Assembly: GCA_039933845.1 (NCBI GenBank)
Contig: JBDTNH010000001.1
Coordinates: forward strand, 5,426 to 69,425
Reading direction: 5' to 3'
Length of the DNA stretch: 64,000 bases
DNA from: Gemmatimonadota bacterium
Lineage (GTDB): Bacteria > Gemmatimonadota > Gemmatimonadetes > Gemmatimonadales > GWC2-71-9
Part shown: piece by piece, positions 40,312 to 56,961 of the stretch
Numbering within the stretch: position 1 is the first letter of the stretch
Layout of the letters: each line of letters starts with the position of its first letter
Program-made: the position numbers and the translations under genes
Notes under the pieces: model-generated
Told to the model about the DNA's origin: nothing
Seen by the model: only the letters and a program-made list of their open reading frames with translations
Database searches by the model: none

Positions 40312-40351
40312 CACTTCTCACTTCTCACTTCTCACTTCTCACTTCTCACTT
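40312..40351. repeat. Heptanucleotide tandem array, 5.7 units CTCACTT
   Basis: Direct read: cactt + ctcactt x5. It fills the 41-bp gap between the convergent stops TGA 40306-08 (+) and TAA 40350-52 (-). Confidence 0.95.
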
Positions 40352-45838: not shown

Positions 45839-45921
45839 TGGCGTCCCGGTCGGAGGAATCTGGCGTGGGAAGCCCTGAAGAAACGCCAAAATCGCGGCCA
45901 CCGCAAGGCGGAGGCGAACCC

Positions 45922-46110
45922 CTAGCGCTTCGCTCCCCGAATAGCCACCGCCAGCCCAAGGGCCGCGCCTATGGCGACCCCGATGACCAATCCGCGAGTG
46001 ATGTTGAGACTCACAAGCCCAGCTGCGAAGCCGAGTCCCGCCCCGATCGCGGCACCCATGGCCATGGCGGAGTAAGGCTTGAAGTGTCGCTGACGTGGCT
46101 TGGAAGACAT
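45922..46110 (-). CDS. Small membrane protein (62 aa), glycine-zipper-like
   Basis: Internal ATG of ORF 45922..46314. MSSKPRQRHFKPYSAMAMGAAIGAGLGFAAGLVSLNITRGLVIGVAIGAALGLAVAIRGAKR has two GxxxG-rich TM helices. AGGGG lies 6 nt upstream. Confidence 0.45.
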   Translation of the reverse strand: MSSKPRQRHFKPYSAMAMGAAIGAGLGFAAGLVSLNITRGLVIGVAIGAALGLAVAIRGAKR

Positions 46111-46220
46111 GGGAACCCCTGGAAAGGTGGCCGCAGACGGTGCCTGTGGGAGTCGATCGTGTTGGCCGGACCCCGTACGATACCCCGGGAAGTGCGGCTG
46201 GGCGAGGTGGAGCTTTCTGA

Positions 46221-47657
46221 TCACCGTTCTCCGTCTGGCCGGTCCGCGGCGTGCGCGATGCCTCGCAGCATCCCGGCGAACACGAGCTGATGGAGCGGAT
46301 AGAGGGCATACCAATAGAGCCGACCGAACAGGCCGACCGGATCAAATGTCGCCGTCTGCCGGATCGTCGACCCGGCGTCGTCGCCGGTGACCTCGAATTC
46401 CAACCATGCGCGTCCCGGCACCTTCATCTCGGCCACGAGGCGGAGTCGCCGGGATTCCACCGCTTCCACCCGCCACCAATCGACGGTATCACCGACGGTG
46501 AGGTCCGTCGCCGACCGCCGCCCGCGACGGACGCCGACACCGCCGATCAGCAGGTCCAGAAATCCGCGCACTCGCCAGAGCCAGTTCCACGCGTACCATC
46601 CCGTTTCACCCCCGATCCGTAGTATCGGAACGAACGCGGCCGCGGGCGGCACGTCGACCGTGAGGGTCCGCGAATCGACCAATCGCGTCCCGAATGCTAC
46701 CCCGCCCCATGAGTGCATTTCTCCTGATGATGACAATGCATCAGACCACCTCGTGGCCGCGAACGCCTGATCCTCGTGCACAATGGCCGCTGCGATGGCA
46801 GCCTCGACTCCCATAGGCCGAATCGCGAATGCAACCCCCGCCGACGGGTCACGAACCACGGTGCTGTGCACGATACTCTCGATCAATTTCCGCCCGATCC
46901 TGGCATACAGCGGGGTGATGAGGCCGAGCCACAGGCTCGAGACGTAGGGAGAAAGCCAAGGGACAGCGACCACGCGCAAGCGCAGGCCACGCTGGTCAGC
47001 GTAGGCGCGCATGATCCCCTCGTAGGAGACCTGATCAGCGCCACCAATCTCATGGATCCGATATCCGGAGGCAGGCACGTCGAGCGCTGCCATCAGATAC
47101 GCAAGCACGTCGTCGATGGCGATGGGCTGGGCCGGCACCCGCACCCACTTCGGCGCGATCATGATCGGCAACCGCTCGACGAGCGAGCGGATCAGCTCGA
47201 ACGACAGGCTACCGGAACCGATGATGATCGAGGCCCGGAACTCGAGCGTTGGAATTCCTGATGCGCGCAGGATCTCGCCCACCACCTGTCGGCTCCGCAA
47301 GTGGGGGGAGAGTTCATCCTCGTCCGATCCGAGGCCGCCGAGATAGATGAGTCGCTGCACACCAGCCGCCTTGGTGGCCGCGGCAAATGTCTCCGCCGCT
47401 TGTCGGTCAGTGCGCTCGAACGCATCCGACGACCCCATCGAGTGGACCAGGTAGTAGGCGACGTCAACACCCTCGAGCGCAGCATCGAGACTCTCGCGGT
47501 CGAGAACATCGCCGCCGACCACCTCGGTCAGTGGCCCAACCCTGGCTATGAGGGTTTCTGGCCGTCGTGTGAGACAGCGCACTCGATGTCCCGCAGCTTC
47601 GAGCCGCCCGAGCAGGCGGCCACCGACGTAGCCAGTGGCACCGGTGAGGAGAATCAC
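46221..47657 (-). CDS. NAD(P)-binding SDR/NmrA-like protein with C-terminal DUF2867-like domain
   Basis: (M)ILLTGATGYVGGRL Rossmann motif. C-terminal WRVEAVE..RLRLVAEMKVPGRAWLEFEV. GTG 47657 overlaps the methyltransferase stop (GTGA). Confidence 0.75.
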   Translation of the reverse strand: MILLTGATGYVGGRLLGRLEAAGHRVRCLTRRPETLIARVGPLTEVVGGDVLDRESLDAALEGVDVAYYLVHSMGSSDAFERTDRQAAETFAAATKAAGVQRLIYLGGLGSDEDELSPHLRSRQVVGEILRASGIPTLEFRASIIIGSGSLSFELIRSLVERLPIMIAPKWVRVPAQPIAIDDVLAYLMAALDVPASGYRIHEIGGADQVSYEGIMRAYADQRGLRLRVVAVPWLSPYVSSLWLGLITPLYARIGRKLIESIVHSTVVRDPSAGVAFAIRPMGVEAAIAAAIVHEDQAFAATRWSDALSSSGEMHSWGGVAFGTRLVDSRTLTVDVPPAAAFVPILRIGGETGWYAWNWLWRVRGFLDLLIGGVGVRRGRRSATDLTVGDTVDWWRVEAVESRRLRLVAEMKVPGRAWLEFEVTGDDAGSTIRQTATFDPVGLFGRLYWYALYPLHQLVFAGMLRGIAHAADRPDGER

Positions 47658-48277
47658 GCCGAATTCCCCTTCCGCACGACCCACGTGGTCATGCACCGCT
47701 GGTCCTGCACGATCGTGGTCTTGAGCGGATCAAGCAGATCGCCACCCAACTCTCGGGTCAGGCGCATCAGCATCGCCTCGTCCACGAGAAACCGTTCCGA
47801 CCCATCTGGCAATTGATAGCGTCGGCCCGCGACCTGTTTGACACGAGACTCCATCCCGATCGATGAGGCCAATCGGCAGAAGAACAGTCCACCCGGAGCG
47901 AGCACGCGCCAGCTCCCGTGCAGCATGCGCATGAAGTGCTGCTCGTCCGTGGCGAAGTGCAGCACAGCGCTGCTCACCACCACGTCGGCGTGCCCGGCCG
48001 GGAAGGACATCTGCTCGACCGATTCGACGCGGAAGTGGTCGAGCGGCAGATGTGGTGCGAGGCGACTGGCCAAGTCCCACACAGCCGCGATCGCTCGCGG
48101 ATCACTGTCCACTCCCGAGACATCGAATCCGCTCGCCAGTAAATAGTGCAGGTTGCGCCCGCGCCCGCATCCCGCGTCGAGCACGCGCATCCCCGACGTG
48201 ATCCGGCCACGCAGGATCTGATCGAAGAGGTAGATGTCGATCGGCCCACACAGGGCGGGCAGATCAGCCGTGGACAT
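47654..48277 (-). CDS. Class I SAM-dependent methyltransferase
   Basis: Motif I: RVLDAGCGRGRN. Post-I: DVSGVD. 207 aa. Confidence 0.75.
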   Translation of the reverse strand: MSTADLPALCGPIDIYLFDQILRGRITSGMRVLDAGCGRGRNLHYLLASGFDVSGVDSDPRAIAAVWDLASRLAPHLPLDHFRVESVEQMSFPAGHADVVVSSAVLHFATDEQHFMRMLHGSWRVLAPGGLFFCRLASSIGMESRVKQVAGRRYQLPDGSERFLVDEAMLMRLTRELGGDLLDPLKTTIVQDQRCMTTWVVRKGNSA

Positions 48278-48316
48278 CAGGGCGCATTCGGGCTTCCGGG
48301 AGAGAGGTCCCGAAGT

Positions 48317-49243
48317 CTAGCGCCTCGGAAGATTTTCGAGGAAGCGAGCGATCTCGGCATTCGCCGAGATGTCACGACTGGTCGGGCCGAACAGTTCCGG
48401 CGCGGGAAACACGCTACCAGGCCACGCATGGCCGCCACCCACGATGCTGTCGACTTCCGTGCGCGTGGCATCCTTGCAGAAGAAGTATTGACCCCGGTAC
48501 ACGGTCGTCCCATCATCCTCGTGATCGGGCAAGGCGGAGCGGAGGCGGGTGCCGCTGCACCTATTCGTTCCCGCCCAATAGCCCACCGTGTTGTCGGTGG
48601 AGAGGACCGTGCTGCTCCCAGCCACAGGGAAGAATCCATCGACGGTCCCCAGGATATAAAGCGCACTGATCGGTCGACTCGGTGTGCACTCCGCGGCCAT
48701 GAGTCGAGGCATGCTGGCCGCAACCGAGACGAAGCCGGCGATCCGATCCGTCAGCTTGCATCCCAACTGTTGCGAAAACACCCCGCCATTCGACAGCCCA
48801 ACGGCAATGATCCGGTGTCGGTCAATCACGTTGGAGCGACCGACGCGGTCGATCACCTCCCGGACATACCCGACCTCATCCAATCCCAGAAAACCAAGGT
48901 CATCAAACACATCCCACGAACCCATCGCGGCCTGGAGATAGACGACGATGAACCCTTCACGGTCAGCGGCGGCATCGAGGCCGGTCAGCGCACGCAGGCC
49001 CGCCGCATCCTGGCCCGTACCGTGAAAGGCCAGCACCAACGGCGCCGCCGGTCCGAGCTCCCGGCGCTCCGGGACATGGACCGAGAAGATCCGGACGAAG
49101 TTCGCCTGCATGAAGCTCTCATCGCGGTCTTCGGCCTGGTAGCTGGACATGACCGGTGAGGGGCCGCATCCGGACGCCGCCAAGGTCGCCAGCGCGAGGA
49201 CCTTGGTCAGAAAGGGTGTGACATTCCGCGGTGCTCGGATCAT
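48317..49243 (-). CDS. Esterase, PHB-depolymerase/LpqC-like (alpha/beta hydrolase) lipoprotein
   Basis: Lipobox LATLAASGC. PLVLAFHGTGQDAAG. Nucleophile elbow GLSNGG. Confidence 0.7.
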   Translation of the reverse strand: MIRAPRNVTPFLTKVLALATLAASGCGPSPVMSSYQAEDRDESFMQANFVRIFSVHVPERRELGPAAPLVLAFHGTGQDAAGLRALTGLDAAADREGFIVVYLQAAMGSWDVFDDLGFLGLDEVGYVREVIDRVGRSNVIDRHRIIAVGLSNGGVFSQQLGCKLTDRIAGFVSVAASMPRLMAAECTPSRPISALYILGTVDGFFPVAGSSTVLSTDNTVGYWAGTNRCSGTRLRSALPDHEDDGTTVYRGQYFFCKDATRTEVDSIVGGGHAWPGSVFPAPELFGPTSRDISANAEIARFLENLPRR

Positions 49244-49375
49244 CGTGTGGGCGCCCGTGTTGGAGGTCGGAGGGTGAGCCTTCGCCAGGAAGACCCTGCC
49301 CGACCCGCGCCCGTCGTCAGAACTGTGTCAGGCGGGCGGGGGAGAGTCGACGCAATGGGCAACGACGGCTCGCCT

Positions 49376-51286
49376 TCAGTCGTTGATCGCTGCGTGGACC
49401 CGCTCGAGCCGTTTCGCGATTTGAGCCTCCAGACGCCGTCGGTGTCCCGGTGTCATCATCTCCGTCTGGATCAGTCTCCGCTTGGCGCGCGCCATAAACG
49501 AATAGCCGCGCGCATCAGAGACCAACCAACGCTCGCGCTCAAGGGTGTCGAGGCACCGGTCAGTCACCGCCGGATCGCTGATTTCCGCCAAGAGTCCGAG
49601 AGCGGTGCCCGCAAACGGCTCCTCCAGCAGTGCCGCAATGTGCGCCACCTTCTGTGTCTCGTCGTCGAGGCGGCGAAAAGAAAGACGTACCGCCGCGACG
49701 AGCGGTTCCGGCAGCGTCACTGGGAGCGTCGCGTCGAAGGTCTGGTCCAGCGCCGGCCATTCCTCGATGGTCTCCAAAGACATCCCGCGCTGCACCGCCA
49801 GCAGGACTTCGGTTGCAATGCCACACAGCCCACCGGATTCGGCATGCAATCGCCGAGTGAGGCGCTCACGTGAGGCGTCCGTCCAGGTCGGTACCGCCCA
49901 ATCGACCAACCCCGCGAGCACGGCGACGGAGACCGGTTCCAGAGAACACACCACGCCAGGAAACTCACGGCCGGCAGCGCGAATCATCTCGTCAATCGCG
50001 GCTGATGCATCCCCGAGCGTGGCCGTCACGAGCAGGACAATGTCGTGTCCGGCGACGTTGCGCAGCAGGGCCAGCAGCCATCGGAGTTCGTCGGGATGAA
50101 GCCGATCGACATCATCGATGGCCAGGAGCAACGGGCGTTCACCCGAGAGCGCGACCACCAGTTGTGCGAATGCCTCACGGAGCGCGAGCGGTTCTGCAGC
50201 CGGCATCTCGGCGAATCGTTCCTGCCAGAGCGTGCTGTGCGCCACCAAGCTGGCGATGGCTCGAGGGGGTGCAGTCGCCACGCCCGGCGCTGAGGCAAGG
50301 CCTGCGTTGGCCAGGCCAAGAGTGGCCGCATCCAGATGATCACCGTCCGCGGGAACGGCACGGAGCATCGCCACGGTGATGCTGGCGAGCTCGGCACGTG
50401 CGACACACTCTTCAAGCAGTCGAGAACGGCCGCTGCCGGGTGACCCAGTGATAACCGCCAAGCGGGCGCCATCCAAGCCATCTGGTCTCAGGAGCGCTCG
50501 AAGTTCGTCGTGATAGCCAACCAGGGGGGGGCGCGCGGTCGGCTGACCCGTGGCGCGCGACGCTGCCGAGCGTCGATCACGGCCGATTTGTGAGAGCAGC
50601 TCAGTAGTCTCAAGGTCGGGTGGCAGGCCGAGATCGTGCCGCAGGTGCGTTGCGAAAGCGGTTCCGGCCGCGAAGGCCGCGGCACGGTCGCCGGCGAGCC
50701 AGAGCGAGCGTATCAGTGCTCGCACGGCGACGTTACTATGCGGATCCACCGCCACGGCCCGTCGAGCGAGGGACGAGGCGGCATCGGCATCCCCGCGGTC
50801 CTCCCGTTCCCGTGCGGCGCGCACCACCACGTCGACCATCCTGCCACGCCAGCGCGTCCGTTCGGCATCGAGCCAGCCGTCGAAATCGGGAGCGTCATCA
50901 AGGACGAGGCCCTCGCAGTAGGCCCCCGCCACCAGTATGGCGGCCGCTTCCGGGTCGTGCCGTTCCAGGCGAGCAAAGAGATCGGTATCGAGTTCGGGCG
51001 GTTCGGTCCACGACACCATGCTGCCGGTCGATTCGAGCGATTCAGCCCCAAACCCGCGGCGGATGACTCGCAGCGCTTCGTTGAGCGAGTGACGCGCGGC
51101 GGATTCACTCCGGTCTGCCCAGAGCAGGGACAGCAGACGCTCCCGTGGCGCGCGGCGTCCGGGAGCGTTCCAGAGGATCAGGCAGAGCGCCAGGTTCTTT
51201 CGCCACAACAGGTCCGCCGGTGCCGGCGCGCCGTCGATGCGGATCTCCGGAGGCCCGAGCAACCGGGCGGTGACTACCGCCGACAT
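49376..51286 (-). CDS. SARP-type regulator: winged-helix + BTAD + AAA(STAND-like) ATPase
   Basis: LLGPPEIRIDGAPAP...LLSLLWADRSESAARHSLNEALRVIRR (OmpR/SARP wHTH). BTAD region ...DPHSNVAVRALIRSLWLAGDRAAA. Walker A ITGSPGSGRSRLL and Walker B LLLAIDDVD. Confidence 0.8.
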   Translation of the reverse strand: MSAVVTARLLGPPEIRIDGAPAPADLLWRKNLALCLILWNAPGRRAPRERLLSLLWADRSESAARHSLNEALRVIRRGFGAESLESTGSMVSWTEPPELDTDLFARLERHDPEAAAILVAGAYCEGLVLDDAPDFDGWLDAERTRWRGRMVDVVVRAAREREDRGDADAASSLARRAVAVDPHSNVAVRALIRSLWLAGDRAAAFAAGTAFATHLRHDLGLPPDLETTELLSQIGRDRRSAASRATGQPTARPPLVGYHDELRALLRPDGLDGARLAVITGSPGSGRSRLLEECVARAELASITVAMLRAVPADGDHLDAATLGLANAGLASAPGVATAPPRAIASLVAHSTLWQERFAEMPAAEPLALREAFAQLVVALSGERPLLLAIDDVDRLHPDELRWLLALLRNVAGHDIVLLVTATLGDASAAIDEMIRAAGREFPGVVCSLEPVSVAVLAGLVDWAVPTWTDASRERLTRRLHAESGGLCGIATEVLLAVQRGMSLETIEEWPALDQTFDATLPVTLPEPLVAAVRLSFRRLDDETQKVAHIAALLEEPFAGTALGLLAEISDPAVTDRCLDTLERERWLVSDARGYSFMARAKRRLIQTEMMTPGHRRRLEAQIAKRLERVHAAIND

Positions 51287-54066
51287 GCCTGGCGCCCCGT
51301 GCGCACACGGTCTCGCAACGCCGACATCGGCGGTTCACTCTCGTGCCACAACTCCTCGACACGATCGAGGAGACGACAACCATACGCGCCACGATCGATG
51401 GCCGGGAGATTCTCGGCCCTGAGCAGCCTGGCAACACCCGAGAGAGCGGCGTCGATCTCACCCTGCTCCGGTTCGCCCCGCGGCTTGCTGGCGAGATCGT
51501 TGTTCTCATGCCAGAGCCATTCGCGTTCGGCACCAGCGGCGTCGCCGTCGCGCTGGCGCCACCTGCCGCGATAGAGATACATGAGCCCCCGCACCAGAGG
51601 ACTTCGCAACCGGGTCTCGCTACTCGGTGGAATCGAGTGGATCCGGTTCGATAGTGCGAGCGCACTGTCGGTCAGGCCACGACTTCCCAGTTGGATCGCG
51701 AGTGCGTACGCGTGCAGGTCGGCAACCCACCGTTCCGATGCATGCGCTTGAAGCAAGGTCAGGAGGCTGTCGGCTGTCCGATCATGCCGCGTCGCGATCG
51801 CGTCCAGCGTCAACGCCCACACCGCACGTGGCCAAAGTGAATCCGTCGGCGCGACTTCGCGGAGCATCAGCCGACCGCGCTCGCGGATACGTTCGTCGAG
51901 CGCGATGGATGCGCCTGGAATCACCGGGAGGAGCACACGCCATTCCGCCGGCTGCATGCGATACCCGGCATCGTGCGGGTCGACGGCCGCACCGCGATCG
52001 AGCGCCTGGAGGCCAGCGAGCGGACGCCCGAGCAGCAGCAAGGCGGTAGCCTGTGCGGCGAGCGCGCTGGCACGTTGCTCGTCGCTGGTCGCCTTCCGCT
52101 CCAGGAATCTGGCGATCGCGTCTTGGTCGAATGGGTCGTCGACACCGAGGCCCATCCGCACGGCGCGGTGAAGGGTGATGACCTTTGCGGAATCAGCGAA
52201 CCGCAACATCAGTTCACGCGCTGGGGCGGCCACCCAGCGTCGGAATCGACCGTTGACGGCCAGCCACAGTATCCCGGTCCACGGATCACCCTTCGCCGAG
52301 GGACGCCGCGATAGCTGCTCCCGCGCCAGGGATTCCTCTCCGAGCCGGGCAGCGCCCCAGATCGTCTGCGTGTAGGTGGTGGCCTGGTCGAGGTCGGGGA
52401 TGTCCAGGGCAGAGCGGCGGAACGCATCAACCCCCTCAGTCAGCGGATGTCCCACCAGCGGACCGCGGCCGAACAGCTCGTTCGCGGCCATCTGCCGAAC
52501 CGTGGCGTCATCGGGAAAGTCATCGACCAATTCCTCATACAGTTGCAGGCGCTTCTCGAGATCCGGTTCGAGCTGGGCCTGCAGCAGGCGTGGAAACGGC
52601 TGGGGCATCGGTGTCTTTCGAGCCGCGAGCTTGACCAGACCCTCCGTGTATGGCAGGCCCTGCCATTGGCGTGCGATCATTCGCTGCCAGGAGGCCTGTA
52701 CCAGACCGCTGTCGATCCGTTCTGCCGTGGCGAACTTTTCCTCCGCCTCATGCCAGTGCCCGCTCTGGAAGAGTTCCTTTCCCCTGGTGTAGGCGTCGAG
52801 CGCGAACCTGTTGGGATACGTGCCGGCCAGCTGTCGGAATTCCGACAGCTGGATCGGGAGCAGCCGGCTCACGAGCGAGTCAGCTGCCGCACGTCCCCAG
52901 GACACGAGGTCGGCAGGATCGCCGGGAACGTGGAAATCCTGCAGCAGCACACCAGCACTGTCATACACTTGAAGCTCGAGTTCACCGACGGTTGCACTTT
53001 TTCGGTGCACCGTTCCAGTCGTCACCATTGCCGAAACCTTGCGTGCCGAGTCGAAGCTGATCACCCTCGCGTGCCGGAACGGGAGCGACCTGACAGGCAG
53101 CCACTCGATCGGCGTCGATGTGAGACGGGCCAGTTGCGTGCCCACGGAATCGTCGCCGGCGAAGGGCAAGATGGCCAGCGATGCTGGGCTGGCAGCGACG
53201 GCCGTGGCGCGGCTGGCTCCAATGATCGCGGCGCCACCGAGCCCAATCAGCCCGATCGCCGCCAGTGCCAGGATCGGTGTTGACATCAGCTTCGGTCGAC
53301 GGAGCGCGCGGCGAAAGGAAGTCGCATCGGGCCAGCGCTCGGCGGGTTGATAGGCGACCGCGCGACGGATCGGACCGCGGATGATCCGAGGAACTGTGCG
53401 CCAGGCACCCTTGACCGAGTGCGGAGTCCACCGACGACCGGTCGCCGCTTCGAACAAGGTGATTCCCACGGAATAGATGTCACTCTGCGGGGTCGCTTCT
53501 TCCCCGATCCGCTGCTCCGGCGCCATGTACCGTGCCGTGCCGACCACCTCATTGGTGCTGGTCAGCGTGTCGTCACCGCCCGTGTCGAGAAGCGCCACGC
53601 CAAAGTCCGCGAGCACGGCGCGGCCGTCCTCGAGAAAGATGTTCGACGGCTTGACGTCGCGATGGATCACTCCTTGGGCGTGCGCGTGTGCCAGCGCTGA
53701 GAGCACATCGAGCCCGAGCCGCCGGACCTCGCGCCACGGCATGGATCCCTTGAGGAGCCGAGTGGCGAGGGTATCGCCGCGGATGAGTGGCATCACGAAC
53801 CACAGCAAGTCACCCCGATGCTGGGCGTCGAGAATGGGGACGATGTTCGGGTGGGCGAGCTTGGCAAGCAGGCGAGCCTCGCGCAGGAAGCGCTCGACCG
53901 CGACAGCGTTGGCGTGTTCGGGCGGCAACACCTTGATCGCGACCGCGCGTCCCAGGATAGGGTCGTGTCCGAGGAAGACACGCCCCATCCCGCCAGCGGC
54001 AAGCTCCCGTTCGACCAGATACCGGGGAGCCAACGCCGCGGCCAGCCCGTCCAGGAGATCTGGCAT
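51274..54066 (-). CDS. Hanks-type Ser/Thr protein kinase with TM and ~640-aa C-terminal helical-repeat region
   Basis: AAGGMGRVFLGHD, VAIKVL, HRDVKPSNIFL, LADFGVA, GTARYMAPE. TM segment ILALAAIGLIGLGGAAII. The 3' end overlaps the SARP-ATPase start by 13 nt. Confidence 0.8.
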   Translation of the reverse strand: MPDLLDGLAAALAPRYLVERELAAGGMGRVFLGHDPILGRAVAIKVLPPEHANAVAVERFLREARLLAKLAHPNIVPILDAQHRGDLLWFVMPLIRGDTLATRLLKGSMPWREVRRLGLDVLSALAHAHAQGVIHRDVKPSNIFLEDGRAVLADFGVALLDTGGDDTLTSTNEVVGTARYMAPEQRIGEEATPQSDIYSVGITLFEAATGRRWTPHSVKGAWRTVPRIIRGPIRRAVAYQPAERWPDATSFRRALRRPKLMSTPILALAAIGLIGLGGAAIIGASRATAVAASPASLAILPFAGDDSVGTQLARLTSTPIEWLPVRSLPFRHARVISFDSARKVSAMVTTGTVHRKSATVGELELQVYDSAGVLLQDFHVPGDPADLVSWGRAAADSLVSRLLPIQLSEFRQLAGTYPNRFALDAYTRGKELFQSGHWHEAEEKFATAERIDSGLVQASWQRMIARQWQGLPYTEGLVKLAARKTPMPQPFPRLLQAQLEPDLEKRLQLYEELVDDFPDDATVRQMAANELFGRGPLVGHPLTEGVDAFRRSALDIPDLDQATTYTQTIWGAARLGEESLAREQLSRRPSAKGDPWTGILWLAVNGRFRRWVAAPARELMLRFADSAKVITLHRAVRMGLGVDDPFDQDAIARFLERKATSDEQRASALAAQATALLLLGRPLAGLQALDRGAAVDPHDAGYRMQPAEWRVLLPVIPGASIALDERIRERGRLMLREVAPTDSLWPRAVWALTLDAIATRHDRTADSLLTLLQAHASERWVADLHAYALAIQLGSRGLTDSALALSNRIHSIPPSSETRLRSPLVRGLMYLYRGRWRQRDGDAAGAEREWLWHENNDLASKPRGEPEQGEIDAALSGVARLLRAENLPAIDRGAYGCRLLDRVEELWHESEPPMSALRDRVRTGRQACRR

Positions 54067-54209
54067 CGACGACCTCGGCTGAGGACCCTGCCACGCTACT
54101 GATGGGCCAAGTATACGGCCGAATCGGAGACCCTGCTTGACGGCGTCTTGACTGCCGCGTCCTACCCTTCAGACGCGTAACCAGCCCCTCACCGACAGGA
54201 GCATGAGCT

Positions 54210-55784
54210 ATGTCCCGACTCCCTGGTGCCCGCGCACGTGTACTGCTGCTCTCCACCGGCTTGCTCTTCGTTCTGGAGACCACGGGGTGTACCTCGTGGC
54301 AGGCCAGTCCGATGCCCCAGCCCGAAAAATCAGTCGGGGCCGGGAGAGAATATGAAGTGAAGACTGCAGATGGGGGTGTCTGGCATCTCGTGCACGTGAT
54401 GATCCGCAATGATTCCCTGATCGGCGAGCGCGTCGATCTGGGCGGTCGTCAAATCGGCATACCGACCATGTCCATTACCACCGTGAAGACGCGCCAGTTC
54501 AACGCCGGTGGAACCATCCTGATGGGCGTTCTGGCACTGGGAATAGTGGGCATGGTTGCCCTTGCGAGTGAGGACAGCTTTGGGTACTCGGGTGGTGGTC
54601 TCCTCGGTGACTCCAATGGGAATGTCAGCTGCCCGCTCATTTACAGTTGGGACGGCAGAGGATATCGACTCGATTCCGGTACCTTCGGTGGCGCAATCAC
54701 CCCGGCGCTTGCCCGCACCGATCTCGACAACCTCCTCCATGTCCGTCCGGTGCATGACACGCTGCGTTTCCTGATGACCGATGAAGCCGACGAGACCGAA
54801 CACGTCGATGCGTTCCACGTCCTCGCGGTCGACCACCCGGTCGGGACCGAGGCCGTTCCGGATGCCCTGGCGAACGGGACGTTTCACCTCGTTGGTCAGC
54901 CCGTCGCCCCGATCACCGCACGCGATCAGTTGGGACGGGATGCACTCCAACAGGTTCGCGCGGCCGATCAGTATGCCTGGGAGTCCCGCCTCGACGGTCG
55001 CGACCCCGAGAACCCGGCGCACCTGCGCGATGGCCTCGAAATGACCTTCCGTCGACCCGCCGGAATGGATCAGGCCGAGCTGGTGGTCGAGGGGCAAAAC
55101 ACCGCCTGGGCGGCCTACCTGATGGGCGAACTGGTGCGCGCCTCCGGGCGAGCCACCCGCGCATGGTATGACACCAGCACCTCGGCCGCCGCCTCGCGCC
55201 CGATGGCGAAGGCGCAACATGAGGAGGGGTTCCTGCAGGCGTCGATTTGGGATGGCGCGGCCTGGCGGCCGGCCGGCGAGATGTGGGAGGCCGGCCCCGA
55301 GGTCGCCAAGCGCCAGACGCTTCGGCTTGACCTACGTGGAACCCCGGTCGGGATCGTGCGGGTCCGACTCGAATCGGCACCCGCAATGTGGAACATCGAT
55401 CAGGTCGTCCTCGCGGCCGTGACGGGTGCACCTGCAATCGCGCGGATACTGTCCCCGGTCACCGCTAGCATCCCAACGGTTCGTGATGCGCTCGCTCCCT
55501 TGCTGGCGAAGGATGGTCGATACCTCGATCTCGAGCGGGGCGATACCGTGCGGATTGCATTCACCGACGCGGCCCCACCGCCGGCCCGGGGGATGGTGCG
55601 CTCCTACCTCGCACAGACGAGCGGCTGGTATCGGGTCCATAGCCAGGATGATGCGGCTCCCGACTTGGCGACCCTTGGGGAGATGGCGTCACACCGCCAT
55701 GGAGCTGCCCGGGTGGCGGTCCGCCGACTCAATGAGCGCCTCGCGGCGATGACACGGGAGGCTGGTCGTGCCAACCTCCGCTGA
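54210..55784 (+). CDS. Hypothetical lipoprotein with one additional TM segment
   Basis: AGGAG 8 nt upstream. Lipobox LLLSTGLLFVLETTGC. TM segment GGTILMGVLALGIVGMVALA. No family recognised. Confidence 0.55.
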   Translation: MSRLPGARARVLLLSTGLLFVLETTGCTSWQASPMPQPEKSVGAGREYEVKTADGGVWHLVHVMIRNDSLIGERVDLGGRQIGIPTMSITTVKTRQFNAGGTILMGVLALGIVGMVALASEDSFGYSGGGLLGDSNGNVSCPLIYSWDGRGYRLDSGTFGGAITPALARTDLDNLLHVRPVHDTLRFLMTDEADETEHVDAFHVLAVDHPVGTEAVPDALANGTFHLVGQPVAPITARDQLGRDALQQVRAADQYAWESRLDGRDPENPAHLRDGLEMTFRRPAGMDQAELVVEGQNTAWAAYLMGELVRASGRATRAWYDTSTSAAASRPMAKAQHEEGFLQASIWDGAAWRPAGEMWEAGPEVAKRQTLRLDLRGTPVGIVRVRLESAPAMWNIDQVVLAAVTGAPAIARILSPVTASIPTVRDALAPLLAKDGRYLDLERGDTVRIAFTDAAPPPARGMVRSYLAQTSGWYRVHSQDDAAPDLATLGEMASHRHGAARVAVRRLNERLAAMTREAGRANLR

Positions 55785-56961
55785 GGTATGGATCACGGGG
55801 CTCGGGGCGCACACCGCTGCGGGCGTGGGGGCCGCGGCGCTCCGCGCGGCGCTCACGCAGCGGACACCACCCGCTTCAGCCGACTCCATCCTCGGTGGTC
55901 AGTGGGTCGCCAGGGCGCCCGACCCGATGGTGGACCGCGCCACCGGTCGACTCGATCGAAGTGGTCAGTTCTTTGTCGTCGCGGCCCGGGAGGCCTGGCA
56001 ACACGCCGACCTCGCCCGCGCGACGCTCGACCCGGATCGGATCGCAGTCATCGAGGGTTCCTCGCTAGGTCCGATGAGTGACCTGCTCGCGATCGAACGC
56101 GAGCGGGTCCGGGACGGCTTCCCGGCGAAAGTATCGCCGCGCCACTTGGTGCGCATGATGTTCGGCGCCGGGGGAGCGCAGTTCGCGCAGGAGATCGGGG
56201 CGCACGGCGCGGTCTTCGCCTTGTCGGCGGGGAGCACCTCCGGTGCGATGGCCATCGCCGAAGGGTGGGCAAAGATCTGTTCGGGTCTGGCAGAGGTGGT
56301 GATCGCTGGAGGGGCAGATGCGCCTCTCGATCCGGAGATCATCGCGGCCTTCCGGACCGCAGGCATTCTCGCGCCCCCCTCAGGAGACGCACCCTGTCGA
56401 CCGTTCGACGTGTCGCGGTGCGGCACGATGCTCGGCGAAGGGGCGGGAGTGGTGGTGCTCGAGGCGGCGGCTCATGCGCGTCGGCGTGGCGCCGTACCGC
56501 TCGCCATACTCGAGGGCACCGGCGTCAGTGGCGAAGATGGCTCGATGACGGCTCCCGATGCATTAGGGGGGGGGATACGTCGCGCCACCCGGTCGGCTCT
56601 GGTCGACACGGACCCTCGCCGAATCGGCTGGATCAAGGCACATGGCACCGGGACACGTCTCAACGATGCTGCGGAATGTTGCGGACTCGACGGTGATTTG
56701 GTCGATGTCCCGGCGAGCTCACTCAAGCCACTCCTCGGCCATTGTCTGGGAGCGAGCGGTGCAGTGGAACTGATCGCGGCCGTGCTGGCCATGGGCGATG
56801 GTGTGATTCCGATGACTTTGACCACGACCCAGGTCGATCCGGCCTTGGGATCGCGTCGCATTGTGCTGGAGCCGGAGGCGTTGCTCCGGCCGGCGGCCCT
56901 GCTGTTGTCGCAGAGCCTCGGTGGTCGATCTGCGGCATTGGTCATCGGGCGCGCTGCATGA
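55768..56961 (+). CDS. Beta-ketoacyl-ACP synthase (KAS I/II, FabF-like) homolog with active-site Cys replaced by Ser
   Basis: GTG start with GGGAGG 7 nt upstream. VWITGLGAHTAAG. The active-site region reads ALSAGSTSGAMAI, with Ser codon AGC at 56233-35 where KAS enzymes have Cys. Both catalytic His motifs are retained (KAHGTGTRLND, LLGHCLGASG). Confidence 0.75.
   Translation: MPTSAEVWITGLGAHTAAGVGAAALRAALTQRTPPASADSILGGQWVARAPDPMVDRATGRLDRSGQFFVVAAREAWQHADLARATLDPDRIAVIEGSSLGPMSDLLAIERERVRDGFPAKVSPRHLVRMMFGAGGAQFAQEIGAHGAVFALSAGSTSGAMAIAEGWAKICSGLAEVVIAGGADAPLDPEIIAAFRTAGILAPPSGDAPCRPFDVSRCGTMLGEGAGVVVLEAAAHARRRGAVPLAILEGTGVSGEDGSMTAPDALGGGIRRATRSALVDTDPRRIGWIKAHGTGTRLNDAAECCGLDGDLVDVPASSLKPLLGHCLGASGAVELIAAVLAMGDGVIPMTLTTTQVDPALGSRRIVLEPEALLRPAALLLSQSLGGRSAALVIGRAA

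What the first reader, a model, noticed from the sequence alone, without database searches (positions are those of the whole stretch)
49376..54066. AfsK/AfsR-like pair encoded as one overlap-coupled operon: receptor kinase then SARP-AAA ATPase regulator
What the sequence shows:
- The 930-aa kinase (TM plus a long C-terminal helical-repeat region) ends 13 nt inside the start of a 636-aa protein.
- That protein has a SARP winged helix, a BTAD domain and a P-loop ATPase (GSPGSGRS; LLLAIDDVD).

Established knowledge: in Streptomyces, the Hanks kinase AfsK phosphorylates AfsR, a SARP-NB-ARC-TPR regulator.

Inference:
- Here the two functions appear hard-wired in a bicistron in a non-actinobacterial-looking genome.
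- The domain distribution differs. The helical-repeat portion is on the kinase, and the regulator lacks an obvious TPR tail.
- This would be a direct kinase-to-transcription-factor pathway with a STAND-like switch.
Basis: partly seen in the sequence, partly recalled or inferred. Interest (0 to 1): 0.6.

Follow-up and report, generated by a model that had tools for sequence, protein, structure and literature searches.

The report
Kinase–SARP regulator cassette with its own promoter box
A membrane receptor kinase and a DNA-binding ATPase regulator are encoded as one overlapping gene pair that is conserved across Gemmatimonadota, together with a distinctive promoter motif next to it, giving a compact and testable one-kinase, one-regulator, one-promoter signalling unit outside the actinobacteria.

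Summary
On the minus strand, a 930-aa Hanks kinase (51274-54066) ends 13 nt inside a 636-aa protein (49376-51286). That protein is a SARP DNA-binding domain fused to a STAND-type ATPase module with no TPR tail.

- **Organism:** Gemmatimonadota.
- **Adjacency is conserved:** 51 of 56 homologous loci have a same-strand kinase upstream. In 32 the genes overlap at a fixed stop, mostly as NTGA.
- **Contrast:** four TPR-bearing relatives from other phyla have no adjacent kinase.
- **New cis-element:** the cassette carries a direct repeat, CTTGAC-N5-CTTGAC-N10-nAnnnT. Its geometry matches SARP-dependent promoters. It clusters at the cassette, and a motif-first metagenome scan recovers the regulator. 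In the window the single box (54136-54152) faces the divergent lipoprotein-plus-KAS operon (54210-56961).

- These are not AfsK/AfsR orthologues. The closest precedent for the gene organisation is embR-pknH.
- The kinase's helical repeats lie after its only TM segment, so they are probably extracytoplasmic. They cannot stand in for AfsR's cytoplasmic TPR.
- The Walker A lysine is arginine here.

Phosphorylation and DNA binding are inferred, not shown. I rate it a new variant of a known kind, of moderate interest.

The parts
51274..54066 (-). Receptor-type Hanks Ser/Thr kinase gene (930 aa)
   Evidence: ORF. Pkinase E=1.2e-40. VAIK, HRD, DFG and APE motifs are present and nearly invariant among homologues. 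A 100% identical protein is named 'MAG: serine/threonine-protein kinase [Gemmatimonadota bacterium]'.
53302..54024 (-). Cytoplasmic kinase catalytic domain (aa ~15-255)
   Evidence: Pfam/NCBIfam matches aa 11-215. The C-lobe continues to about aa 255 by sequence.
53215..53283 (-). Single predicted transmembrane segment (aa ~262-284), preceded by RRALRRPK
   Evidence: It is the only Kyte-Doolittle peak above 1.6 in the protein. The basic stretch on the N-terminal side suggests an N-in, C-out topology (inference).
52861..53184 (-). Membrane-proximal alpha/beta subdomain of the C-terminal region (aa ~295-402), starting SLAILPFAG
   Evidence: AlphaFold secondary structure beta-alpha-beta3-alpha, pLDDT 76-93.
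51277..52860 (-). TPR-like alpha-solenoid of about 26 helices (aa ~403-930), probably extracytoplasmic, with two nearly invariant C-terminal cysteines
   Evidence: AlphaFold model pLDDT 81. Foldseek matches are TPR superhelices such as IFT-A, Ski3, DdvA and LbcA. Conserved C897 and C928.
51274..51286 (-). 13-nt overlap of the kinase stop (TAG) with the regulator start (ATG)
   Evidence: Sequence. The stop sits at the same position in 52 loci. 43 of these have NTGA 4-nt overlaps, and 8 (the window's clade) have only the 13-nt form.
49376..51286 (-). SARP-NOD regulator gene (636 aa)
   Evidence: ORF. About 95 full-length homologues of ~630 aa. 409 relatives in species genomes, and the best 80 are all Gemmatimonadota apart from one bin labelled Acidimicrobiia and one 'uncultured bacterium'.
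50579..51286 (-). SARP domain: winged-helix DNA-binding domain (aa 1-~100) plus BTAD (aa ~101-236). The recognition helix ARHSLNEALRVIRR carries invariant residues R65, S67, L68, A71 and R76.
   Evidence: BTAD above its Pfam cut-off. Profile match to EmbR E=6e-13 and AfsR E=3e-7. Foldseek to AfsR 8k60_I TMt 0.71 and EmbR 2ff4. Invariant columns.
49379..50521 (-). STAND-type NOD (aa ~256-636): P-loop NBD, helical domain, winged-helix domain, terminal helix; no TPR
   Evidence: AAA_16 above cut-off. AlphaFold pLDDT 89.5, pTM 0.87. Foldseek to Apaf-1 (3shf), MalT (8bob_C), CED-4, plant NLRs and PAB2304.
50423..50446 (-). Walker A GSPGSGRS with Arg287 in place of the canonical Lys
   Evidence: Alignment. 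Across loci, a regex tally that includes a few spurious matches gives K in about 50 and R in about 19, the R cases including the whole window clade.
50111..50131 (-). Walker B LLLAIDD (D391 and D392 invariant)
49709..49759 (-). Conserved WP-x-P-xx-T-LDQ-T-LP-xx-LP loop (aa 510-526). It is low-confidence in the model. T516 is 99% conserved and position 520 is S/T in 95%. Candidate phospho-acceptor or docking loop (inference).
   Evidence: pLDDT below 50 for residues 508-522. Column conservation over 79 regulators.
54136..54152 (+). Candidate SARP box: direct repeat CTTGAC-GGCGT-CTTGAC (11-bp period)
   Evidence: It is the only match in the 64-kb window, where 0.03 is expected. The same repeat occurs 82 times in 1.27 Mb of loci at an 11-bp period, against 0-10 at other spacings. 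It is concentrated at the cassette.
54163..54168 (+). -10-like hexamer TACCCT, 10 nt after the 3' repeat, with no properly spaced -35
   Evidence: 72 of 81 boxes carry nAnnnT at exactly this offset. Sequence.
54210..55784 (+). Predicted target gene 1: 524-aa lipoprotein-like protein of unknown family (signal peptide with Cys27, one further hydrophobic segment)
   Evidence: Translation. No Pfam or NCBIfam match. SD GGAG at 54197-54200. Found together with the KAS and preceded by a box in L001, L005, L006, L010 and L061.
55768..56961 (+). Predicted target gene 2: divergent FabF-like beta-ketoacyl synthase, overlapping gene 1 by 17 nt
   Evidence: Pfam ketoacyl-synt N and C domains. NCBIfam fabF 209 bits, below the 494 cut-off.
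54110..54115 (-). -10-like TATACT facing the kinase, 20 nt from the box, inside the conserved GGCCGTATACT; possible kinase-operon promoter
   Evidence: The arrangement is conserved in L001, L004, L005 and L036, and is similar in L071, 75-93 nt upstream of the kinase ATG.

Best explanation
This is a self-contained signalling cassette of Gemmatimonadota.

Shown:
- The two genes and their domain architecture.
- A conserved, overlapping (translationally coupled) bicistron.
- A cassette-associated promoter motif with SARP geometry.

Inferred mechanism:
1. The kinase is a single-pass receptor. Its C-terminal alpha/beta-plus-TPR-like region lies outside the cytoplasm and senses an envelope or periplasmic cue.
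2. Its cytoplasmic Hanks domain then acts on the co-translated regulator, most likely by Ser/Thr phosphorylation. Candidate sites are the conserved T516/T520 loop between the helical and winged-helix subdomains, or the Walker A serine S288, which is equivalent to AfsR T337.
3. The regulator has no sensor domain of its own. Two SARP domains bind side by side to the two 11-bp repeats CTTGACnnnnn-CTTGACnnnnn, which occupy roughly -39 to -18 of promoters lacking a usable -35. This recruits RNA polymerase as AfsR does at the afs box.
4. In this window the box drives the divergent lipoprotein-plus-KAS-like operon. In other lineages the same box drives different adjacent genes, several of which look exported.
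5. In this copy the NOD may bind nucleotide without hydrolysing it (Walker A Arg), so the kinase rather than ATP turnover may set the switch.
For: - Architecture.
- Linkage: 51 of 56 loci with at least 3.3 kb upstream carry a same-strand Hanks kinase within 5 kb, and in 32 the kinase stop overlaps the regulator start.
- Junction: it is NTGATC in most loci, and 51 of 52 have an overlapping start.
- Ectodomain: homologues of the kinase's C-terminal region are found almost only directly upstream of the regulator.
- Specificity: 0 of 4 TPR-bearing BTAD-AAA_16 relatives from other phyla have an adjacent Pkinase gene.
- No other conserved neighbour exists.
- Box spacing: 82 pairs at the 11-bp period against 0-10 at other spacings.
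- Box location: 68 of 82 are intergenic. Density is 5.3 per 10 kb in the 500 nt upstream of the cassette and 2.4 per 10 kb in the 500 nt downstream, against 0-0.3 beyond 5 kb.
- Box coverage: 35 of 52 loci with both flanks have a cassette-adjacent site with at most one mismatch.
- Fixed -10: 72 of 81 boxes carry nAnnnT at exactly the same offset.
- Window: exactly one box in 64 kb, beside the cassette, where 0.03 is expected.
- Motif-first scan: it returned 120 hits, and 4 carry the regulator family right at the box, where about 4e-4 would be expected.
- Geometry: it matches published SARP promoters, with repeats 11 bp apart, the 3' repeat about 8 bp from the -10, and the afs box at -40 to -19 bound by a side-by-side dimer (PMC10936776).
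- Co-conservation: the recognition helix and the CTTGA core are both invariant across the family.
- Precedents for kinase-to-SARP signalling: AfsK-AfsR and PknH-EmbR.
Against: - No phosphorylation, DNA-binding or expression data exist for any member.
- The regulator has no FHA or other known phospho-dependent docking domain.
- In AfsR, phosphorylation has only a small effect on activation (PMC10936776). EmbR was not found phosphorylated in vivo under normal growth (PMC9239209).
- The Walker A lysine is arginine in the window's clade, so a canonical ATP-driven STAND switch is doubtful here.
- About 19 loci have a 0.5-1.8 kb gap, a different kinase type, or frameshifted kinases. Of the five loci without a kinase within 5 kb, three (L009, L012, L043) have none within 10 kb upstream, and L016 and L049 have one about 6 kb upstream.
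- Only 35 of 52 loci show a cassette-adjacent box.
- The box points away from the kinase operon, so autoregulation is not supported.
- T516, T520 and T612 could be conserved for structural reasons; T612 is a helix N-cap.
- The topology rests on hydropathy and the positive-inside rule only.
Confidence: 0.6

Rival explanations
1. Sequestration rather than phosphorylation. The kinase holds the sensor-less STAND regulator at the membrane by direct binding, much as the MalT-MalK complex does, and releases it on signal. Kinase activity would serve autophosphorylation or other substrates.
For: The strict 1:1 translational coupling suits a stoichiometric complex. The NOD resembles MalT, whose structural match here (8bob) is the entry titled 'Structural basis for negative regulation of the maltose system'. 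That this entry is the MalT-MalK complex is from my own knowledge. The regulator has no FHA or known phospho-docking domain. AfsR and EmbR phosphorylation have weak or undetected in vivo effects.
Against: The catalytic motifs of the kinase are nearly invariant across homologues, which argues that catalysis matters. The cytoplasmic part of the kinase is essentially only the catalytic domain (aa 1-258), with no obvious docking module. The regulator has conserved Thr/Ser in a flexible loop.
Confidence: 0.2
2. The two genes are co-expressed but act in separate pathways. The regulator is controlled only by nucleotide or an unknown ligand, and the kinase has other substrates.
For: Hanks kinases are usually pleiotropic, and this window alone encodes four. 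Three loci (L009, L012, L043) have no kinase within 10 kb upstream of the regulator.
Against: The pairing holds in 51 of 56 loci over 33-82% identity, with a fixed overlapping junction. Kinase adjacency persists even where the kinase type changes (cluster 7). It is absent from TPR-bearing relatives. The regulator lacks any sensor domain.
Confidence: 0.1
3. The CTTGAC-N5-CTTGAC-N10-nAnnnT element is not the regulator's site. It would be the promoter type of another factor, such as an alternative sigma factor or an OmpR-type response regulator, that happens to sit near the cassette.
For: Binding was not tested. Some boxes lie 3-9 kb from the cassette. Many GC-rich metagenome hits show no regulator on the mostly short contig. 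TTGAC resembles a -35 hexamer.
Against: Neither TTGAC is at a usable distance from the -10: the spacers are 9 and 20 nt. Density falls more than tenfold within 5 kb of the cassette. The window has one site in 64 kb. The SARP is the only conserved DNA-binding protein in the neighbourhood. The geometry equals the afs box within 1 bp. The motif-first scan retrieves the regulator.
Confidence: 0.15
4. An anti-phage defence pair: a STAND NTPase plus a kinase.
For: Both STAND ATPases and Ser/Thr kinases occur in defence systems. The kinase domain matches PADLOC kinase models such as PD-T4-6 and mad6.
Against: Those PADLOC hits cover only the generic kinase domain. The regulator has no meaningful PADLOC hit, the best being E=0.006 over 28 residues. 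It carries a DNA-binding SARP domain and no effector domain. The cassette is spread widely and mostly in single copy across one order, with promoter boxes driving ordinary neighbouring genes.
Confidence: 0.03

Closest known systems
PknH-EmbR of Mycobacterium tuberculosis (Rv1266c/Rv1267c)
   Same: A SARP-family regulator (winged helix plus BTAD) and a single-pass receptor Hanks kinase with an extracytoplasmic sensor domain are encoded in one operon, and the kinase phosphorylates the regulator in vitro (PMC9239209). EmbR is the best solved-structure sequence match to the regulator's N-terminal 250 residues.
   Different: The gene order is reversed, with embR upstream of pknH. EmbR's third domain is an FHA phosphopeptide-binding domain, whereas here it is a STAND NOD ATPase module with no FHA. 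The kinase ectodomains are unrelated in type, being alpha/beta plus a TPR-like solenoid here. The phylum also differs.
AfsK-AfsR of Streptomyces coelicolor (a 'large' SARP)
   Same: The regulator is a SARP domain followed by a STAND NOD. A Hanks kinase encoded nearby phosphorylates it, including on the last Walker A residue (PMC10936776). The target promoters have two 11-bp direct repeats overlapping the -35 region, and the box found here has that geometry within 1 bp.
   Different: AfsR has a C-terminal TPR sensor and this protein has none. AfsK is separated from afsR by two genes rather than being an overlapping bicistron. AfsK equivalog model: 86 bits, cut-off 1300. From my own knowledge, AfsK lacks a TM-plus-ectodomain. 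Walker A is GK[ST] in AfsR and GRS here.
Small cluster-situated SARPs (ActII-ORF4, DnrI, RedD)
   Same: They activate adjacent genes from promoters with direct repeats spaced 11 or 22 bp apart, the 3' repeat lying about 8 bp from the -10 (PMC10936776). Here too the boxes sit next to the regulator gene and drive neighbouring genes.
   Different: Those proteins consist of the SARP domain alone, have no dedicated kinase, and occur in actinobacterial antibiotic clusters. Here the neighbours are variable and several look exported, not an obvious biosynthetic cluster.
MalT-type bacterial STAND transcription factors
   Same: NBD-HD-WHD module coupled to a DNA-binding domain. Foldseek match to MalT over 379 columns.
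   Different: From my own knowledge, MalT has a C-terminal LuxR-type DNA-binding domain and a sensor domain that binds maltotriose. Here the DNA-binding domain is N-terminal and SARP-type, and no sensor domain exists.

Membership tests
SARP family transcriptional activators | N-terminal OmpR/PhoB-type winged-helix DNA-binding domain | tested here: met
   Pfam Trans_reg_C alone is subthreshold (E=0.045, 14.3 bits against 26.2). However, the family profile aligns to EmbR residues 15-275 (E=6e-13) and to AfsR (E=3e-7). The AlphaFold model superposes on the AfsR SARP domain (TMt 0.71, rmsd 4.1) and on EmbR.
SARP family transcriptional activators | Bacterial transcriptional activation domain (BTAD) following the winged helix | tested here: met
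   PF03704 at 38.8 bits against a cut-off of 22.1, aa 107-234.
SARP family transcriptional activators | Target promoters with direct repeats 11 or 22 bp apart, the 3' repeat about 8 bp from the -10 | tested here: inconclusive
   Sites of exactly this geometry are strongly associated with the gene: CTTGAC-N5-CTTGAC-N10-nAnnnT. Binding by this protein was not, and cannot be, tested here.
STAND / NOD ATPases ('large' SARPs of the AfsR type) | P-loop NBD with a canonical Walker A, GxxxxGK[ST] | tested here: not met
   The window protein has GSPGSGRS, with Arg287 in place of Lys. In a regex tally over the loci that includes a few spurious matches, about 50 homologues have K and about 19 have R.
STAND / NOD ATPases ('large' SARPs of the AfsR type) | Walker B hhhhDD, with the NBD followed by helical and winged-helix subdomains | tested here: met
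   LLLAIDD with invariant D391 and D392. AAA_16 above cut-off. Foldseek to Apaf-1, CED-4, MalT, plant NLRs and PAB2304 over 370-400 columns.
STAND / NOD ATPases ('large' SARPs of the AfsR type) | C-terminal sensor or repeat domain (TPR in AfsR) | tested here: not met
   The protein ends at aa 636 after the winged-helix subdomain and one long helix. There is no TPR hit beyond the BTAD. All ~95 close homologues are about 630 aa.
AfsK (Streptomyces) orthologues | Full-length match to the AfsK equivalog model | tested here: not met
   NF053615 scores 86 bits against a cut-off of 1300, on the kinase domain only.
Hanks-type (eukaryote-like) Ser/Thr kinases | Catalytic domain with the Gly-rich loop, VAIK Lys, HRD, DFG and APE motifs | tested here: met
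   Pkinase 140 bits. The motifs are visible in the sequence and nearly invariant in 17 homologues.
PknH-EmbR-type kinase/SARP operon | SARP regulator and receptor kinase co-encoded in one operon | tested here: met
   13-nt overlap in the window. Conserved in 51 of 56 loci.
PknH-EmbR-type kinase/SARP operon | FHA domain on the regulator mediating phospho-dependent docking | tested here: not met
   No FHA match in Pfam even at E up to 1. The model shows a NOD instead.
PknH-EmbR-type kinase/SARP operon | Phosphorylation of the regulator by the kinase | not testable with these tools
   This needs an in vitro kinase assay or phosphoproteomics.
Anti-phage defence systems with STAND or kinase components | Match of the components to known defence-system models | tested here: not met
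   PADLOC matches the kinase only through generic kinase-domain models. The regulator's best hit is E=0.006 over 28 residues.

The most novel reading that the evidence does not exclude
Gemmatimonadota may have built an orthogonal signalling system around a Hanks kinase, analogous to a two-component system. A receptor Ser/Thr kinase would have replaced the built-in TPR sensor of a STAND-SARP activator, giving a dedicated one-to-one kinase/transcription-factor pair. The pair would have its own 22-bp operator and a swappable, locally encoded target gene. In the window's clade the ATPase switch has degenerated (Walker A Lys to Arg), so phosphorylation of a conserved inter-subdomain loop (T516/T520) would be what opens the STAND module.
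Probability: 0.25. Interest if true: 0.65.

Novelty: new variant of a known kind. Interest (0 to 1): 0.5.

Why it matters
Bacterial Hanks kinases rarely have a clearly assigned cognate transcription factor and promoter. Even the model pairs AfsK-AfsR and PknH-EmbR remain mechanistically unclear.

This cassette offers all three parts in about 5 kb: receptor kinase, sensor-less SARP-STAND regulator, and a predicted 22-bp operator with an adjacent target. It comes with hundreds of natural variants, including natural Walker A K/R variants.

That makes three questions directly testable in a reconstituted system:
- How does Ser/Thr phosphorylation talk to a STAND switch?
- How does a SARP activate promoters that lack a -35?
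- Is ATP hydrolysis needed?

It also extends SARP-type promoter architecture outside the Actinobacteria, and gives a first regulatory handle in the poorly studied phylum Gemmatimonadota.

Tried and rejected
- **Defence-system reading.** Rejected. PADLOC matches only the generic kinase domain and gives nothing meaningful for the regulator.
- **AfsK orthology.** Rejected: 86 bits against a cut-off of 1300.
- **The box as a general Gemmatimonadales promoter or a tandem -35.** Considered because TTGAC resembles a -35 and boxes occur at several intergenic sites. Rejected because of the 9- and 20-nt spacers to the -10, the steep fall-off in density with distance from the cassette, and the single site in the 64-kb window.
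- **Autoregulation of the kinase operon from the box.** Not supported. The box's productive orientation points to the divergent or downstream gene. A conserved TATACT 20 nt on the kinase side is noted but unexplained.
- **T612 (TPGQRRR) as a phospho-site.** Down-weighted, since the model places it as the N-cap of the last helix.
- **Other conserved partners (phosphatase, FHA protein, third gene).** None found. Beyond the pair, no neighbour is shared by more than 17 of 80 loci.
- **Sigma-70 promoter and terminator scan of 48200-54400.** Uninformative, with counts no higher than in shuffles.
- **Sequence link between the kinase ectodomain and the membrane SARP fusion P0103.** Not significant by BLASTP. 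Only the short SLA(V/I)LPFA motif is shared.
- **Look-up of the window's own contig via P0121.** Returned nothing.
- **Literature searches.** No paper was found describing this pair or SARPs in Gemmatimonadota.
Full report
**1. The observation**

Two long ORFs lie head to tail on the minus strand: 51274-54066 (930 aa) and 49376-51286 (636 aa). The downstream ATG (51286) lies 13 nt before the end of the upstream TAG (51276-51274).

Kinase:
- It has a complete Hanks catalytic domain (Pkinase E=1.2e-40; VAIK, HRD, DFG and APE present).
- It has a single hydrophobic segment at aa ~262-284, preceded by RRALRRPK.
- It has a 645-aa C-terminal region. AlphaFold (17-sequence alignment, pLDDT 81) folds this as a small alpha/beta domain followed by about 26 helices. 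The Foldseek matches of this model are generic TPR superhelices. Pfam sees TPR only below threshold.

Regulator:
- BTAD and AAA_16 score above their Pfam cut-offs. Trans_reg_C is only at E=0.045.
- A profile of 33 family members matches EmbR residues 15-275 (E=6e-13) and the AfsR SARP domain (E=3e-7).
- The AlphaFold model is confident (pLDDT 89.5, pTM 0.87).
- Its first 250 residues superpose on the AfsR SARP domain (TMt 0.71) and on EmbR.
- The rest matches NBD-HD-WHD modules of Apaf-1, CED-4, MalT, plant NLRs and PAB2304.
- There is no TPR tail.

One caveat applies: in GSPGSGRS the Walker A lysine position is an arginine.

**2. Source and family**

An identical kinase is on record as 'MAG: serine/threonine-protein kinase [Gemmatimonadota bacterium]'. 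The regulator has about 95 full-length homologues of ~630 aa, at 33-99% identity, in the protein database. It has 409 relatives in the species-genome collection. The best 80 are from Gemmatimonadales/Gemmatimonadota MAGs, apart from one bin labelled Acidimicrobiia and one 'uncultured bacterium'.

**3. Is the pairing real?**

In the 56 homologous loci with at least 3.3 kb of upstream sequence:
- 51 carry a Hanks kinase on the same strand within 5 kb.
- In 32 the kinase stop overlaps the regulator start.
- Of the other five, L009, L012 and L043 show no kinase within 10 kb upstream. L016 and L049 have one about 6 kb upstream, ending about 3 kb before the regulator.

The junction itself is conserved. 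The upstream ORF's stop codon sits at the same place relative to the regulator's N-terminus in 52 loci. 43 of these have an NTGA 4-nt overlap (ATGA, GTGA or TTGA followed by TC). Eight, the window's clade, keep the stop but use an ATG or GTG 9 nt further up, which gives the 13-nt overlap seen here.

Homologues of the kinase's C-terminal region occur almost only directly upstream of the regulator. About 15 loci have a different kinase type (zinc ribbon, kinase, Ig-like repeats, ~1040 aa) separated by 0.5-0.9 kb, so adjacency survives a change of kinase type. No third gene is conserved; the next most frequent neighbour is present in only 17 of 80 loci.

By contrast, four more distant relatives that keep a TPR tail (950-1090 aa, other phyla) have no Pkinase gene within 6 kb. 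Kinase coupling therefore goes with absence of the built-in sensor. This contrast rests on only four cases.

**4. A cassette-specific promoter box**

*The element in the window.* The 143-nt region between the kinase and the divergent ORF at 54210 contains CTTGACGGCGTCTTGAC (54136-54152, plus strand). It is the only such repeat in the 64-kb window, where 0.03 is expected.

*Abundance and position across the 80 loci plus the window (1.27 Mb).*
- Pairs of TCAAG/CTTGA occur 82 times at an 11-bp period, against 0-10 times at any other spacing from 5 to 20.
- 68 of 82 are intergenic, although 86% of the sequence is coding.
- Density is 5.3 per 10 kb in the 500 nt upstream of the cassette and 2.4 per 10 kb in the 500 nt downstream. 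It is 0-0.3 per 10 kb beyond 5 kb.
- Allowing one mismatch, 35 of 52 loci with both flanks have a cassette-adjacent site.

*Geometry.* Read as CTTGAC-N5-CTTGAC, 72 of 81 instances carry nAnnnT exactly 10 nt after the second repeat (A 93%, T 91%). A start codon follows, most often 40-95 nt further on. Neither TTGAC is at a workable -35 distance; the spacers are 9 and 20 nt. If the hexamer is the -10, the two 11-bp repeats span about -39 to -18.

The AfsR paper describes SARP targets as direct repeats 11 or 22 bp apart, with the 3' repeat 8 bp from the -10. [quoted passage not shown] The match is within 1 bp.

*Further support.*
- The regulator's recognition helix (ARHSLNEALRVIRR, five invariant residues) is as invariant across the family as the CTTGA core.
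- A motif-first scan of metagenome contigs with the 14-base composite returned 120 hits. About half are from low-GC contigs that are probably unrelated. Four carry the regulator family (hmmsearch E no greater than 4e-40) immediately beside the box, where about 4e-4 would be expected from the family's frequency.

I therefore assign the box to this SARP as an inference. Binding has not been shown.

**5. What the box drives**

*In the window.* The box, TACCCT (54163-54168), GGAG (54197-54200) and ATG 54210 line up on the plus strand. The predicted target is a 524-aa lipoprotein-like protein of no known family, followed after a 17-nt overlap by a divergent FabF-like ketoacyl synthase. This gene pair recurs next to the cassette in five other loci, either divergent from the kinase or downstream of the regulator. 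Each time it is preceded by a box.

*Elsewhere.* The box-driven neighbour differs:
- An endonuclease/exonuclease/phosphatase-family protein with a signal-like N-terminus neighbours the cassette in 17 loci, with a box upstream where inspected.
- Other loci have a 400-aa protein of no Pfam family.
- In gap-type loci, small ORFs lie between the kinase and the regulator.

Several of these start with signal-peptide-like sequences by eye; this was not formally tested.

*The kinase operon.* The box does not point into it. A conserved GGCCGTATACT lies 20 nt on the kinase side in the window's clade and may be that operon's own -10. No box lies between the regulator and the downstream PHA-depolymerase-like esterase.

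**6. Mechanism**

Best supported:
1. A receptor kinase senses an extracytoplasmic cue through its alpha/beta-plus-solenoid region.
2. Its catalytic domain acts on the stoichiometrically co-translated, sensor-less SARP-NOD regulator.
3. The regulator activates -35-less promoters through the 22-bp box.

What is shown and what is inferred:
- Shown: the architecture, the conserved coupling, and the motif association.
- Inferred: topology, phosphorylation, DNA binding, and activation rather than repression.

Candidate acceptor sites:
- S288, the last Walker A residue. Its counterpart T337 is phosphorylated in AfsR by AfsK.
- The conserved loop W510-P-x-P-xx-T516-LDQ-T520-LP-xx-LP, between the helical and winged-helix subdomains. 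It is the only long low-confidence stretch inside the NOD (pLDDT below 50). T516 is 99% conserved and position 520 is S/T in 95% of sequences.

Known precedents counsel caution. AfsR phosphorylation raises ATPase activity but barely changes activation. EmbR was not phosphorylated in vivo under standard growth. The recurrent natural Lys/Arg variation at the Walker A position suggests that hydrolysis may be dispensable in some lineages, including this one.

The main rival is membrane sequestration of the regulator by the kinase, analogous to MalT-MalK.

**7. Comparison and novelty**

The system works like AfsK-AfsR and PknH-EmbR, but it is a member of neither:
- The AfsK model fails.
- There is no TPR and no FHA.
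- The kinase's repeats are on the other side of the membrane from where AfsR's TPR acts.

A SARP plus receptor kinase in one operon is already known from embR-pknH (PMC9239209), so the bicistron is not new in principle. What I found no description of:
- the TPR-less SARP-NOD architecture tied to a dedicated kinase across Gemmatimonadota;
- the conserved overlapping junction;
- the associated SARP-type promoter box outside the Actinobacteria.

I rate it a new variant of a known kind, with moderate interest (0.5).

Noticed in passing
window 40350-46345 (-) and 59454-61988 (+): Three more Hanks kinases lie within 22 kb. Two are tandem zinc-ribbon/Pkinase/TPR genes (40350-43094 and 43091-46345), whose listed ORFs overlap by 4 nt. 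The third is a Pkinase with strong TPR_12/TPR_10 repeats (59454-61988). None has an adjacent SARP gene. The first two are related to the kinases of loci L055 and L070 that do sit upstream of a regulator.
   Followed up: partly
window 50423-50446 (regulator aa 281-288); loci L001-L007, L009, L014, L030, L034, L039, L056, L059, L071, L080: The Walker A lysine is naturally replaced by arginine (GxGRS/T) in several separate clades of the regulator family. Walker B and the rest of the NOD stay conserved. This is unusual for a P-loop protein and unexplained.
   Followed up: partly
window 54210-56961 (+): A 524-aa lipoprotein-like protein with no family assignment is overlap-coupled (17 nt) to a divergent FabF-like ketoacyl synthase (209 bits against a cut-off of 494). 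The pair travels with the cassette in six loci, in two different arrangements. Its function is unknown.
   Followed up: partly
window 54105-54120 (-); L001, L004, L005, L036, L071: A conserved GGCCGTATACT lies 20 nt from the box on the kinase side. It is a likely -10 for the kinase operon, which would put the box at about -49 to -33 in the reverse orientation. Whether the bound regulator represses or helps this promoter is unknown.
   Followed up: no
L061 4318-10007: Two tandem paralogous kinases with homologous C-terminal regions lie upstream of one regulator.
   Followed up: no
L203 6001-12909 (Chloroflexota MAG, P0107): A TPR-bearing BTAD-AAA_16 relative overlaps a downstream PAS/GAF histidine kinase gene by 26 nt, followed by an OmpR-type response regulator. 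This may be a different way of wiring a large SARP to a sensor kinase.
   Followed up: no
P0103 (847 aa, JGI metagenome): This protein is named by JGI as TolB-like/SARP/TPR. It has a SARP domain, then a hydrophobic segment, then SLAVLPFAD and TPR repeats. The kinase's membrane-proximal domain starts with the same short motif (SLAILPFAG). This suggests a one-component membrane SARP with a similar outer module, but the similarity is not significant by BLASTP.
   Followed up: partly
L065 11947-17933; L019 6853-21345; L013 5839-18891: Some loci carry 4-6 boxes spread over several kb next to the cassette, mostly downstream of the regulator. In L065 three consecutive small paralogous genes start MRPIIPALAL.../MRPINLV... 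This hints at larger local regulons.
   Followed up: no
window 48317-49243 (-): The gene directly downstream of the regulator resembles extracellular short-chain PHA depolymerase / PHB-depolymerase-family esterases (112 bits against a cut-off of 150). It has no box upstream and is not conserved next to the cassette elsewhere.
   Followed up: partly
kinase aa 897 and 928 (window 51283-51378): Two nearly invariant cysteines lie in the last 35 residues of the kinase. This would fit a disulfide in an extracytoplasmic domain, but it was not checked in the model.
   Followed up: no
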